A stretch of DNA of 64,000 nucleotides from Escherichia coli. GTDB lineage: Bacteria > Pseudomonadota > Gammaproteobacteria > Enterobacterales > Enterobacteriaceae. The position numbers and the translations under genes are program-made. Below, piece by piece: positions 1 to 29,470 of the stretch. Position 1 is the stretch's first letter, and the number at the start of each line of letters is the position of its first letter. The notes beneath the pieces were generated by a model. The model was not told the origin of the DNA. It made no database searches and saw only the letters and a list, made by a program, of their open reading frames with translations. The DNA lies in assembly GCF_024502345.1 (NCBI RefSeq), contig NZ_JALDNN010000001.1; one strand, written 5' to 3'.

Positions 1-166
1 CACTTTGCGATGAAGGTGAAGCGTTGTATCACCGCATGACCGAGCAAGGAGTGCAATGTACCTGCCAACGCTACCCTGGCGTTATCCACGGATTTTTTCA
101 GTTAGGTGGTATCAGCGAGGCCGCGCGATCGGCACTACGGGATGTTGCCTGGAGAGCGGGAAGGTA
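1..166 (+). CDS. 3' end of an alpha/beta-hydrolase (esterase/lipase, HSL/Aes-like) gene; partial, start lies outside the window
   Basis: Open frame from position 3 to TAA at 164-166 gives ...LCDEGEALYHRMTEQGVQCTCQRYPGVIHGFFQLGGISEAARSALRDVAWRAGR*; a C-terminal HGF motif is typical of the catalytic His region of fold-3 esterases. Not in the ORF track because it is truncated. Confidence 0.45.
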
Positions 167-182
167 ACTTCGGACCTGGGCC

Positions 183-215
183 CTGAAAAGGTTTTCAGAT
201 TGAAAACCTTTTCAG
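183..215. repeat. Perfect 14-bp inverted repeat with 5-nt loop between convergent genes; possible bidirectional terminator
   Basis: ctgaaaaggttttc (183-196) / agatt / gaaaaccttttcag (202-215); lies between the esterase-like stop (166) and the yiiD stop (231). The stem is AT-rich, so terminator strength is uncertain. Confidence 0.4.
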
Positions 216-230
216 TCAAGTAAAACGCCC

Positions 231-1220
231 CTACTCTTCTTCGTTCCCGCCCTCTTCATACGGGCCAAATGGCTTCGCGGGCAGAACGATATACGTGCCT
301 TCAAACACTGCACCCGGCGTCTCGTCGCCAAAGATTTCAACTTGCATCTGCACCCGTGCTTTTCGTCCGCGCGCCAGACGGTCGAGATCGCCGCTTAAGG
401 CACCAAGGTCGGCTACCGCATGGGGTTTACCGCTAATCGGTTTGCTGTAGCGGATATGCGCATCCGCCAGAATAATCGTTCCGCCGAGGTGGCGTTCACG
501 CAGCATCAGCCAGATAAGCCCCCAACCGGTGAGCGTCGCCAGCGAGAATAAACTCCCGGCAAACAGCGTATGGTGCGGATTCTGATTGCCGGTTTCCGGC
601 ATGGTGGTGATAAATTTTTGCCCGGTATATTGTTGAATACGCACGCCCATTTTTTCACTAAGCGGGATATGTTCGTACCACGCCTGTTGCAGCTGCGCGC
701 ACCAGTCGCCGCGATGCAAAATATCATCCAGAGTGGCGACGGGCTTAATCATCAAAAAATGGCGAATCGGCGTGGTGGTTGGCGTGGTGATTTCTCCCTG
801 ATTAACAAACCCCAGCTTGGCGAAAAACTCCACCGCGTCTTCACGGGCGCTACAGGTCACGCGCTTAACGCCTTCCTGACGCGCCACCGACTCTAGGGTC
901 ATCGCCATCAGCGTTCCTAACCCTTTGTCCTGCACGTCCGGGTGAACGGCCATAAAGCGAATGGACGCTTCATTGTCGGCATTAATATACAGTCGGCCTA
1001 CCGCCACCAGATTACCCTGCTCGTCGACGACCATCTGGTGATGCGCCATCGCATCCCACGCGTCGCGTTCCGAACCTTTTGGTTGATGCAGGGGCTTACG
1101 CAACATTTCCCAGCGAAACTGATAGTAACGCTCTAATTCTTCTTCTGTTTGTGGAACCCGAAGGTGATACATAGCGATACTCTCTCTTGTTTCCCGTGAC
1201 AACCCTGGAAGCTGGCTCAT
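231..1220 (-). CDS. yiiD: GNAT acetyltransferase / thioesterase-like fusion protein YiiD (FabY)
   Basis: 329-aa ORF whose sequence I recognise as YiiD; start overlaps the dtd stop (ATGA), implying translational coupling. Confidence 0.9.
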
Positions 1221-1654
1221 ACCTGCAACCAGAATGTCACGGGGCCATCATTGACCAGCGATACCTGCATATCCGCAGCGAAGCGTCCTGTTTGCGTGTT
1301 CATCTCTTGCTGACGGCAGCGTTCGACGAAATAGTCATATAACGCCTCTGCGCGATCCGGTGATGCACCTTTGGAGAAACTTGGGCGCATCCCCCGTTCG
1401 GTATCTGCGGCGAGGGTAAACTGGGAAACCACCAGCACACTGCCGCCCGCCTGTTGCACGTTGAGATTCATCTTGCCTTCGGCATCGCTAAAGATGCGGT
1501 AGCCGAGCACACGCTCGCACAGACGGTTTGCTTTCTGTTCGTCGTCATCCTTTTCGACACCCAATAACACCAAAAGTCCCGCGCCAATTTCGCCCGTCAC
1601 TTCTCCCTCCACGGTGACGCTGGCACGGGTTACGCGTTGAATTAATGCAATCAT
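1217..1654 (-). CDS. dtd: D-aminoacyl-tRNA deacylase
   Basis: 145-aa [22 protein letters not shown]...; length and sequence match Dtd; 4-bp overlap with the upstream rbn stop. Confidence 0.95.
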
Positions 1655-20379: not shown

Positions 20380-20412
20380 AAAAAAAAACCTGCCAGCGAT
20401 GGCAGGTTTTTT
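20380..20412 (-). terminator. Rho-independent terminator of typA
   Basis: Hairpin CCTGCCAGCGATGGCAGG (20389-20406) flanked by an A-run and a T-run; on the minus strand the stem is followed by a U-run. Confidence 0.8.
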
Positions 20413-29227: not shown

Positions 29228-29470
29228 GAAAAAAGGCGACAGATTACTCTGTCGCCTTTTTTCCTGACTCATAACCCTTAACGGGTCTTACAATCCTTGC
29301 AGGCCGCCAACACACCCTGTTTTTCCATTAGCCGGAACAATCCGTGTTGATTCCATTTCCGTTTAATTACGTCTCCGGACGTTTGTCTTCCTGACAATCC
29401 TCTGTCTTCGCCTCCTGGCGCTCCTGACCCTCATCCTGAGTCATTGTTCCTGTTAGCGTCCTCGCTCTAT
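29228..29470 (-). ncRNA. csrC: CsrC sRNA (CsrA-sequestering)
   Basis: Minus-strand transcript beginning ATAGAGCGAGGACGCTAACAGGAACAATGACTCAGGATGAGGGTCAGGAGCGCCAGGAGG... with more than a dozen GGA triplets, ending in hairpin GGCGACAGAGTAATCTGTCGCC plus U-run. Lies in the yihI-engB intergenic region; sequence recognised as CsrC. Confidence 0.85.

What the first reader, a model, noticed from the sequence alone, without database searches (positions are those of the whole stretch)
1..233. Truncated esterase/lipase-like gene converging on yiiD with a perfect 14-bp palindrome in the gap
The window opens inside a plus-strand ORF whose C-terminus (…YPGVIHGFFQ…) resembles HSL/Aes-type alpha/beta-hydrolases. 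I do not recall a convergent gene immediately downstream of yiiD in K-12, so this may be strain-specific accessory content or a gene remnant. The 64-bp gap holds a perfect inverted repeat (183-215) that could serve as a bidirectional terminator.
Basis: partly seen in the sequence, partly recalled or inferred. Interest (0 to 1): 0.35.

Follow-up and report, generated by a model that had tools for sequence, protein, structure and literature searches.

The report
TspE4.C2 esterase gene end, toxin-antitoxin scar
The window opens in the last 54 codons of the well-known E. coli "TspE4.C2" lipase/esterase gene, the phylogrouping PCR marker that K-12 lacks, and the palindrome behind it is most likely a leftover repressor-binding site from a deleted higBA toxin-antitoxin cassette, so the finding is real but ordinary.

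Summary
Window 3-167 (+) is the 3' end of a 302-aa family IV (hormone-sensitive-lipase-type, Pfam Abhydrolase_3) esterase gene. It converges on fabY/yiiD across a 63-bp gap. The gap holds a perfect inverted repeat with 15-nt arms (183-197 and 201-215) and a 3-nt loop.

Only the window edge truncates the gene. It is full length next to fabY in about 2,300-2,600 of 5,426 complete E. coli genomes and is absent from K-12. It is the Clermont phylotyping marker TspE4.C2: both published quadruplex primers match it exactly and give the 152-bp product.

It is not a recent acquisition. The esterase-fabY convergent pair also occurs in Klebsiella, Citrobacter, Kosakonia, Enterobacter, Superficieibacter and a Salmonella record.

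The palindrome core (191-207, GTTTTCA-N3-TGAAAAC) equals the twice-repeated operator-like motif of a higBA promoter. That cassette sits exactly here, intact, in the Salmonella record, in E. whittamii and in 34 E. coli genomes. It is half-decayed in Superficieibacter. The gap is therefore best read as a higBA deletion scar.

As a terminator it is non-canonical: an AU-rich 8-bp inner stem (-6.8 kcal/mol) with only 4 U. It may act as a weak two-way RNA hairpin.

Novelty: already known. Interest: low.

The parts
1..167 (+). 3' end (54 codons plus TAA, frame 3) of the TspE4.C2 family IV / HSL-type carboxylesterase gene. The catalytic His277 codon is at 87-89 (IHGFF). The catalytic Asp247 codon lies just upstream of the window start.
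   Evidence: PF07859. Searches show the full 302-aa gene in related genomes. Searches show the Clermont primers matching that gene. One search shows the catalytic residues invariant in orthologs.
168..230 (.). 63-bp spacer between the convergent esterase and fabY genes, read as the scar of a deleted higBA toxin-antitoxin cassette.
   Evidence: The spacer occurs only in the 2,308 genomes of this haplotype. Its left part aligns with the higBA promoter, and its right end with the higA stop region, of loci that carry higBA at this same position.
183..215 (.). Perfect inverted repeat CTGAAAAGGTTTTCA-GAT-TGAAAACCTTTTCAG. The RNA hairpin is -18.2 kcal/mol on either strand.
   Evidence: B2 strains such as CFT073 carry A at position 184, which breaks one pair with no compensating change.
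191..207 (.). Core GTTTTCAGATTGAAAAC, an exact match to the operator-like motif GTTTTCA-N3-TGAAAAC found twice in the promoters of this higBA subfamily.
   Evidence: The motif is conserved in Salmonella L035, Serratia plasmid L036, E. whittamii L032, E. coli UPEC132 L033 and Superficieibacter L011. The K-12 higBA promoter has the same architecture.
200..205 (+). TTGAAA, the relic of the -35 box of the lost higBA promoter. No -10 box follows it, so the promoter is dead.
   Evidence: Inference from alignment A3 and from the intact promoters. The promoter scan finds nothing in 1-1500.
218..230 (+). AAGTAAAACGCCC, homologous to the last codon, stop codon and short spacer of higA in E. whittamii (AAGTAAAAACGCC, then the fabY stop).
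   Evidence: One search compared. The two differ only in the lengths of an A-run and a C-run.
231..1220 (-). fabY (yiiD), a core gene. The longest ORF is 329 aa; the RefSeq start corresponds to window 1172. Similarity to K-12-type genomes begins exactly at its stop codon, position 231.

Best explanation
Shown: window 1-167 is the tail of the TspE4.C2 'putative lipase esterase' gene. It encodes a cytoplasmic family IV (HSL-type) serine carboxylesterase with a Ser153 (GDSAG) / Asp247 / His277 triad. It sits convergent to fabY, a pairing that is old in Enterobacteriaceae. E. coli retains it in roughly half of complete genomes and has lost it from K-12-type, O157-type and other haplotypes of a highly rearranged yiiE-fabY hot spot.

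Inferred, well supported: a higBA toxin-antitoxin cassette once sat between the esterase and fabY. In this lineage it was deleted. What remains is the first HigA operator-like palindrome with the promoter's -35 box, plus the last few bases of higA. That leftover is the 63-bp gap.

Inferred, weakly supported: with no cognate HigA present, the palindrome now acts only at the RNA level. It would form a stable 15-bp hairpin at the 3' ends of both convergent transcripts, giving a weak, non-canonical two-way terminator or a block to 3' exonucleases.
For: Gene identity:
- Pfam Abhydrolase_3 at E 4e-69. Best PDB relatives are family IV esterases, E about 1e-50.
- The triad is invariant in 9 orthologs.
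- Primers TspE4C2.2b and TspE4C2.1b, as printed in Table 1 of PMC5322314, match L001 11296-11315 (+) and 11428-11447 (-) with no mismatch, giving 152 bp.

Distribution:
- 2,307-2,308 of 5,426 genomes carry this junction.
- 2,599 carry at least 80% of the 2,010-bp segment.
- K-12 lacks it.

Ancient synteny:
- Orthologs of 70-83% amino-acid identity occur in more than 8 genera.
- The fabY 3' end lies directly downstream and convergent in at least 10 of those loci.
- The Salmonella record carries fdhE, a NadS/toxin pair, lipase, higB, higA, then fabY and dtd on the opposite strand.

Scar:
- higBA occupies this exact position in E. whittamii and in 34 E. coli genomes. HigB matches PF09907 at E 1e-19.
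- GTTTTCA-N3-TGAAAAC occurs twice in those promoters, and also in a Serratia plasmid homolog whose HigB is only 58% identical.
- The HigA helix-turn-helix region is nearly invariant across these loci.
- More distant HigB loci use a different motif. K-12 higBA has the same two-site layout with GTTGCCA-N3-TGGCAAC.
- The window core 191-207 matches the motif exactly, and the flanks align.
- Superficieibacter shows an independent intermediate: intact esterase, one palindrome, a 5'-truncated higA with no higB, then fabY.

Hairpin: -18.2 kcal/mol on both strands.
Against: - The window does not contain the 5' 85% of the gene. Intactness in this strain and the presence of the primer sites are inferred from relatives.
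- HigA binding to GTTTTCA-N3-TGAAAAC is inferred from conservation and from analogy with K-12. It was not measured.
- The outer 7-8 bp of each arm have no counterpart in intact higBA promoters, whose arms are only 7-8 bp. How the palindrome grew to 15 bp is unexplained.
- The right-hand homology is short (13 nt).
- The RNA-level role is untested. There is no canonical U-tract on either strand, one pair is broken without compensation in B2 strains, and a 1-nt deletion occurs in one strain.
- E. coli alleles carry Tyr instead of His in the HGG oxyanion motif, so enzymatic activity itself is uncertain.
Confidence: 0.8

Rival explanations
1. The palindrome is a purpose-built bidirectional intrinsic terminator that insulates the convergent esterase and fabY genes.
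For: - It sits between convergent stop codons.
- It can be read as A4, then an 8-bp stem (GGUUUUCA), a 3-nt loop, the return stem, then U4. That is the layout of bidirectional terminators.
- The fold z-score is -3 to -4.
- The orphan palindromes of E. coli and Superficieibacter are both longer (15 and 11 bp) than the 7-8 bp sites of intact higBA promoters. That could reflect selection for a stronger hairpin.
Against: - The terminator scan does not call it.
- The inner stem is only -6.8 kcal/mol with 3 G-C pairs and 4 U. Two canonical bidirectional terminators in the same window have -11.9 and -15.0 kcal/mol and 6 U.
- After the full stem the tails are UCAAGUAA (+) and GGCCCAGG (-).
- Klebsiella and one Citrobacter have an 11-13 bp gap with no hairpin, so the gene pair does not need one.
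- The sequence is explained by homology to a higBA operator.
- About half of the carriers have a mismatch in the stem.
Confidence: 0.25
2. The palindrome is still a working protein-binding site. A HigA-type antitoxin encoded elsewhere, for example the chromosomal K-12-type HigA, would bind it, making it a decoy or a roadblock between the two genes.
For: - The core is an exact operator consensus.
- K-12 HigA is 43% identical to the cognate HigA, with a similar helix-turn-helix region.
- K-12 HigA's own operators share 5 of 7 bases per half-site and the same 7-3-7 geometry.
Against: - The cognate higBA is detectable in only 35 of 5,426 genomes, so nearly all carriers of the palindrome lack it.
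- The two central half-site bases differ (TT against GC), and these probably set specificity.
- A single site without a promoter has no obvious regulatory target.
- No binding data exist.
Confidence: 0.07
3. The esterase and its flank are horizontally acquired accessory DNA, and the palindrome marks a mobile-element end or an integration site.
For: - Presence and absence vary among strains.
- Similarity to K-12-type genomes breaks exactly at the fabY stop.
- The region is crowded with toxin-antitoxin modules.
- One haplotype carries a gene annotated as 'transposase'.
Against: - The esterase-fabY synteny spans several genera.
- Divergence between B1 and B2 alleles (96-97%) resembles that of the flanking core genes.
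- The palindrome is single-copy, with no second inverted or direct repeat copy at the other boundary.
- The 'transposase' module of haplotype T4 does not carry the palindrome at its ends.
- No integrase or tRNA gene is annotated in the neighbourhood.
Confidence: 0.04

Closest known systems
TspE4.C2, the 'putative lipase esterase gene' used in the Clermont triplex and quadruplex E. coli phylogroup PCR
   Same: It is the same gene. Primers TspE4C2.1b and TspE4C2.2b (PMC5322314, Table 1) match the full-length copy exactly with the published 152-bp spacing. That copy is contiguous with, and 99% identical to, the window fragment. The presence/absence pattern fits the marker: present in B1-type and B2-type strains such as O111:H8, CFT073 and ST131, absent from K-12.
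   Different: The window holds only the last 165 nt, downstream of the amplicon. The window allele has two amino-acid differences (E262, P273) from the common allele.
E. coli Aes (acetyl esterase, ybaC) and bacterial HSL / family IV esterases such as Est8 (4YPV), PestE (2YH2) and EST2 (1EVQ)
   Same: Abhydrolase_3 fold, the GDSAG nucleophile elbow, the DPL Asp and the HGF His. E values are 1e-44 to 1e-51 against solved family IV esterases and 5e-29 against Aes 4KRX.
   Different: It is a paralogue of Aes, not Aes itself: NCBIfam acetyl esterase scores 138.6 bits against a cut-off of 389. No NCBIfam equivalog cut-off is reached; the best is LipP1, 239 against 350. E. coli alleles read YGGC where the family has HGGG. 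The substrate is unknown.
E. coli K-12 higBA (ygjN-ygjM) autoregulated promoter with paired HigA operators
   Same: Two 7-3-7 palindromes bracket the -10 box upstream of higB. HigB belongs to PF09907 and HigA is a helix-turn-helix antitoxin 43% identical to K-12 HigA.
   Different: The half-site is GTTTTCA rather than GTTGCCA. In the window only one site survives, with no higB, higA or -10 box, and its arms are extended to 15 bp.
Bidirectional intrinsic terminators between convergent genes (from my own knowledge of the literature; examples in this window at 20383-20412 and 29228-29263)
   Same: A palindrome between convergent stop codons, with an A-run and a T-run flanking an inner stem.
   Different: The inner stem is AU-rich and weak (-6.8 kcal/mol), and the runs are 4 nt rather than 6. 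The consensus scan does not detect it.

Membership tests
Family IV / HSL-type esterases (Pfam Abhydrolase_3, PF07859) | Profile match above the curated cut-off | tested here: met
   The full-length ortholog scores 232.9 bits (cut-off 25). The 54-aa window fragment scores 27.1 bits.
Family IV / HSL-type esterases (Pfam Abhydrolase_3, PF07859) | Catalytic triad: Ser in G-x-S-x-G, Asp in DPL, His in HGF | tested here: met
   GDSAG Ser153, Asp247 and His277 are invariant in 9 orthologs. Only His277 (codon 87-89) lies inside the window.
Family IV / HSL-type esterases (Pfam Abhydrolase_3, PF07859) | HGG(G) oxyanion-hole motif | tested here: not met
   E. coli alleles read YYYGGCF (Tyr79). Orthologs in 7 other genera read Y(Y/F)HGGCF. 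The motif lies outside the window, and its effect on activity is not testable here.
Aes / acetyl esterase equivalog (NCBIfam NF007547) | Score above the equivalog cut-off | tested here: not met
   138.6 bits against a cut-off of 389.
TspE4.C2 phylogrouping marker | Both quadruplex primers anneal in the gene and give 152 bp | tested here: met
   Exact matches at L001 11296-11315 and 11428-11447. The primer sequences come from PMC5322314. This was tested on the closest full-length copies, not on the window, which lacks that part.
Intrinsic (Rho-independent) terminator | G+C-rich stem-loop followed directly by a U-tract of about 5-8 | tested here: not met
   The scan reports no site here. No U-run follows the full stem. 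The inner reading gives -6.8 kcal/mol and U4.
Intrinsic (Rho-independent) terminator | Transcript 3' ends map at the hairpin | not testable with these tools
   This needs Term-seq or 3' RACE in a carrier strain.
HigA operator of a higBA promoter | Palindrome matching the subfamily motif GTTTTCA-N3-TGAAAAC | tested here: met
   Exact match at 191-207. The motif recurs in 5 independent higBA contexts.
HigA operator of a higBA promoter | Located in a promoter directly upstream of higB-higA | tested here: not met
   No higBA follows; fabY's stop is 16 bp after the palindrome. The site is an orphan.
HigA operator of a higBA promoter | Bound by HigA | not testable with these tools
   This needs EMSA or footprinting.
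Dispersed palindromic repeats (REP/BIME, ERIC, MITEs) | Multiple copies per genome | tested here: not met
   One place per genome in 2,308 genomes. One copy in the window allowing up to 3 mismatches. No Rfam match.

The most novel reading that the evidence does not exclude
After higBA was lost, the orphan operator was not just left to decay. It was extended from 7-8 bp arms to 15 bp, and independently to 11 bp in Superficieibacter, and was reused. It would now serve either as a two-way transcript-end hairpin for the esterase and fabY, or as a cross-talk or decoy site for the chromosomal HigA paralogue. That would be an example of a toxin-antitoxin operator exapted into a host regulatory element.
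Probability: 0.1. Interest if true: 0.4.

Novelty: already known. Interest (0 to 1): 0.2.

Why it matters
The gene is one of the most frequently PCR-tested loci in E. coli epidemiology, yet its genomic setting is rarely described. I found no paper in the searchable library that mentions TspE4.C2 together with yiiD, fabY or yiiE.

This analysis places TspE4.C2 at the fabY-yiiE hot spot. It shows that presence is the ancestral state and absence the derived one. It also shows that the locus exists in at least five structural haplotypes, some with only a 35-codon remnant.

These points help explain false negatives and odd Clermont profiles. Beyond that, the locus gives a tidy natural series of stages in the decay of a toxin-antitoxin cassette. 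Nothing here overturns current understanding.

Tried and rejected
- Dispersed repeat or REP element: rejected, because the palindrome is single-copy.
- Known RNA family: no Rfam match in window 1-1400 at E <= 1.
- Live promoter in the gap: no sigma-70-like site.
- Footprint of the 'transposase'-annotated two-gene module seen in haplotype T4 and in O157: its ends were read and do not contain the palindrome.
- LacI/Cra-type operator: considered because TGAAAA..TTTTCA resembles such sites. I dropped the idea once the higBA homology explained the sequence. It was not tested further.
- RNA-structure conservation: no compensatory change was seen. The only stem variants, A184 in B2 strains and a 1-nt deletion in strain L1PEag1, break pairing, so covariation gives no support.
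- Polarity of the T184/A184 change: it could not be decided, because alignment to the higBA promoters is ambiguous at that column.
- Direction of the event from the HigA C-terminus: 'FID' is intrinsic to HigA, but the final Lys codon is Escherichia-specific. This argument is therefore only supportive.
- Technical: most fetched loci (all but L001, L003, L004 and L033, including L010-L032) never reached the Python sandbox. Those loci were compared by reading sequence and with the alignment and search tools.

Full report
**What is in the sequence**

The window begins inside a + strand ORF (frame 3) that ends with TAA at 165-167. Its 54 residues are LCDEGEALYHRMTEQGVQCTCQRYPGVIHGFFQLGGISEAARSALRDVAWRAGR.

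fabY (yiiD) is on the - strand with its stop codon at 231-233, followed by dtd, yihY, yihX and csqR. The two genes converge across 63 bp (168-230).

The repeat finder reports a perfect inverted repeat with arms 183-197 and 201-215 (15 nt) and a 3-nt loop.

The repeat is not a chance feature:
- It is the second-longest perfect hairpin in the 64 kb.
- Thirty Markov simulations of the window reached arms of only 8-12 nt.
- The 76-nt region folds with a z-score of -3.95 (+) and -3.0 (-).

**Identity of the gene**

The fragment alone passes Pfam's Abhydrolase_3 threshold. A megablast of window 1-400 against 5,426 complete E. coli genomes found the whole query in 2,307 of them. It is always annotated 'alpha/beta hydrolase | fabY'. 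All other genomes match only from base 231 onward, which is the fabY stop.

In these genomes the hydrolase is an intact 909-bp, 302-aa gene. This includes the closest relative of the window, which is 99.2% identical over 6 kb.

The full-length protein shows these matches:
- PF07859 at E 4e-69.
- Solved family IV / HSL-type esterases at E about 1e-50, and E. coli Aes only at 5e-29.
- No NCBIfam equivalog cut-off is reached. Acetyl esterase scores 138.6 against 389, and LipP1 scores 239 against 350.

Ser153 (GDSAG), Asp247 (DPL) and His277 (HGF) are invariant across nine orthologs. His277 is window codon 87-89. The Asp codon lies just before base 1.

**It is the TspE4.C2 marker**

I recalled the Clermont primers from memory and then checked them. 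TspE4C2.2b (AGTTTATCGCTGCGGGTCGC) and TspE4C2.1b (CACTATTCGTAAGGTCATCC) are printed in Table 1 of PMC5322314. They match the full-length gene at L001 11296-11315 (+) and 11428-11447 (-) with no mismatch. That gives the published 152-bp product.

K-12 MG1655 indeed has only an 852-bp gap between fabY and yiiE.

**A multi-haplotype hot spot**

Comparing loci shows at least five arrangements between yiiE and fabY.

| Type | Content between yiiE and fabY | Example or count |
|---|---|---|
| T1 (the window) | RelE/ParE-like toxin + NadS antitoxin, esterase, then the 63-bp palindrome gap | 2,308 genomes |
| T2 (K-12-like) | An unrelated 478-bp AT-rich filler in place of the 2,010-bp segment | NC19, MG1655 |
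| T3 (O157:H7) | Two hypothetical genes and no esterase | strain TT12A |
| T4 | Toxin-antitoxin pair + esterase + the two-gene module | strain 3059; about 290 genomes (2,599 minus 2,308) |
| T5 | Esterase reduced to a roughly 35-codon remnant, followed by higB-higA | 34 E. coli genomes and E. whittamii |

The K-12 filler is the fabY-proximal end of the two-gene module.

**The esterase-fabY pairing is ancestral**

A scan of one genome per species found orthologs of 70-83% identity in Citrobacter, Superficieibacter, Lelliottia, Klebsiella (including K. pneumoniae ATCC 13883), Kosakonia, Franconibacter and Enterobacter.

The fabY 3' end lies directly downstream and convergent in at least ten of those loci. 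The gap is about 11-13 bp in K. pneumoniae and one Citrobacter, 185 bp in another Citrobacter, and about 410 bp in Kosakonia, where it holds a small unrelated ORF.

A Salmonella record (deposited as plasmid pRM11060-1, but syntenic with the chromosome) carries this order: fdhE, a regulator plus HigB-2-like toxin, lipase, higB, higA, then fabY, dtd and a yihY-like gene on the opposite strand. The gene is variable in E. coli, but its presence is the old state and K-12's absence is derived.

**What the palindrome is**

None of the Klebsiella or Citrobacter gaps contains the palindrome. In T5 E. coli, E. whittamii and the Salmonella record, the space between the esterase (or its remnant) and fabY holds a higBA cassette. 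HigB matches PF09907 at E 1e-19, and HigA is a helix-turn-helix protein.

The cassette's promoter carries two copies of GTTTTCA-N3-TGAAAAC (site 1 in the two Escherichia loci is slightly degenerate, ending TGAAAAT). Site 1 overlaps a TTGAAA -35 box. Site 2 follows the -10 box.

Several observations support reading this motif as the HigA operator:
- The same two sites occur upstream of a Serratia plasmid higBA whose HigB is only 58% identical.
- The HigA helix-turn-helix segment is nearly invariant across these loci.
- More distant HigB loci use a different motif.
- The experimentally known K-12 higBA has the same two-site 7-3-7 layout with GTTGCCA-N3-TGGCAAC.

Window 191-207 (GTTTTCAGATTGAAAAC) matches the motif exactly. 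The left flank of the gap aligns with the T5 sequence between the esterase stop and site 1. The last 13 nt (AAGTAAAACGCCC) match the last higA codon, stop and spacer of E. whittamii.

Because the motif travels with higBA in unrelated contexts, the orphan copy in T1 is best explained as what remained after higBA was deleted. Superficieibacter provides an independent intermediate: intact esterase, one palindrome (TGTTGTTTTCA-TAT-TGAAAACAACA), a 5'-truncated higA with no higB, then fabY.

**Does it terminate transcription?**

The consensus scan does not call it. No U-run follows the full 15-bp stem on either strand.

It can be read as A4, an 8-bp stem, a loop, the return stem, then U4. That inner stem is only -6.8 kcal/mol. 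Two textbook bidirectional terminators in the same window (20383-20412 and 29228-29263) have stems of -11.9 and -15.0 kcal/mol with 6 U.

About half of the carriers, the B2-type alleles, have A184, which breaks a pair with no compensation. One strain has a 1-nt deletion in an arm. Genera with an 11-13 bp gap manage without any hairpin.

A stable 33-nt hairpin (-18.2 kcal/mol) would still form in both transcripts. It could slow 3' exonucleases or cause weak termination. That remains an untested inference. There is no Rfam match and no promoter-like site.

**Verdict**

The HSL-type assignment and 'not in K-12' are right. 'Remnant' is wrong, because the truncation is only the window edge. 'Accessory' needs the qualifier that the gene is ancestral but often lost. 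'Bidirectional terminator' is at best a weak secondary role of what is primarily a higBA deletion scar.

The gene is already known and annotated in thousands of genomes. The scar reading and the haplotype series are small new details. Interest is low.

Noticed in passing
L001 11493-11495 (esterase codon 79; outside the window): E. coli alleles of the TspE4.C2 esterase, both B1-type and CFT073, have Tyr (TAC) where orthologs from seven other genera have the His of the family's HGG oxyanion-hole motif (YYYGGCF against Y(Y/F)HGGCF). The E. coli enzyme may be impaired, which would fit its frequent loss.
   Followed up: partly
window 36-41 and 73-78: The window allele differs from the best of 5,426 complete genomes at three bases, all within 1-160. 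The changes give E262, which is the state seen in other genera, and P273. P273 is Leu in 8 of 9 aligned orthologs and lies four residues before the catalytic His. No complete genome is more than 99.2% identical over the first 6 kb, so the strain is not closely represented.
   Followed up: partly
L008 6070-6155 and 7886-7971: In haplotype T4 the nadS-toxin-esterase unit (1,816 bp) is bracketed by 86-bp direct repeats that are 90% identical. Recombination between them would delete TspE4.C2 and produce an O157-like arrangement.
   Followed up: partly
L003 1580-2057, equivalent to K-12 downstream of fabY: K-12's 478-bp AT-rich filler, including a RefSeq 'incomplete hypothetical protein', is the promoter and first codons of a two-gene module (304 and 297 aa, no Pfam family). 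That module is intact in O157:H7 (L009 3297-5111) and in strain 3059, where one of the genes is annotated 'transposase'.
   Followed up: partly
L011 5923-5947 (Superficieibacter sp.): The orphan operator next to a truncated higA is also extended, to 11-bp arms (TGTTGTTTTCA-TAT-TGAAAACAACA). Sites in intact higBA promoters have 7-8 bp arms. Two independent orphan sites with lengthened arms remain unexplained. Template-switch 'perfecting' of palindromes or selection for a hairpin are both possible.
   Followed up: no
window 176-185: The 10-mer next to the palindrome occurs as CTGGGCCCTG (window, O128:H27), CTGGGCCCAG (strain AVS0456, itself a perfect palindrome) and CAGGGCCCAG (CFT073). The two variable bases are symmetric about GGGCCC, so the window and CFT073 forms are reverse complements of each other.
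   Followed up: no
window 20383-20412 and 29228-29263: Two textbook bidirectional terminator palindromes: AAAAAACCTGCCAGCGATGGCAGGTTTTTT and GAAAAAAGGCGACAGATTACTCTGTCGCCTTTTTTC. I used them only as internal comparators.
   Followed up: no
L001 11066-11082: A perfect palindrome GTACGTCA-T-TGACGTAC lies in the divergent region between the RelE/ParE-like toxin gene and the esterase gene. It is a likely operator of the NadS antitoxin and could also affect esterase transcription.
   Followed up: no
L001 10221-10427: Between yiiE and nadS, on the - strand, there is a 30-codon ORF (MTRNRAERRHPMMRLKKLIVALMIDVNAIG). Nearby is a conserved about 60-nt element (CACTATGCCGCTTTCACAGGAGTTCTGAATGCT...). This stretch is also kept at about 90% identity in O157:H7. 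It gave no Rfam hit in the scan of L001 8800-12300.
   Followed up: partly
L001 9016-9098 (between fdhE and yiiF): Sub-threshold Rfam matches to ES036/CssrF (35.9 bits against a gathering score of 37.6) and to naRNA4. These are REP-like elements.
   Followed up: no
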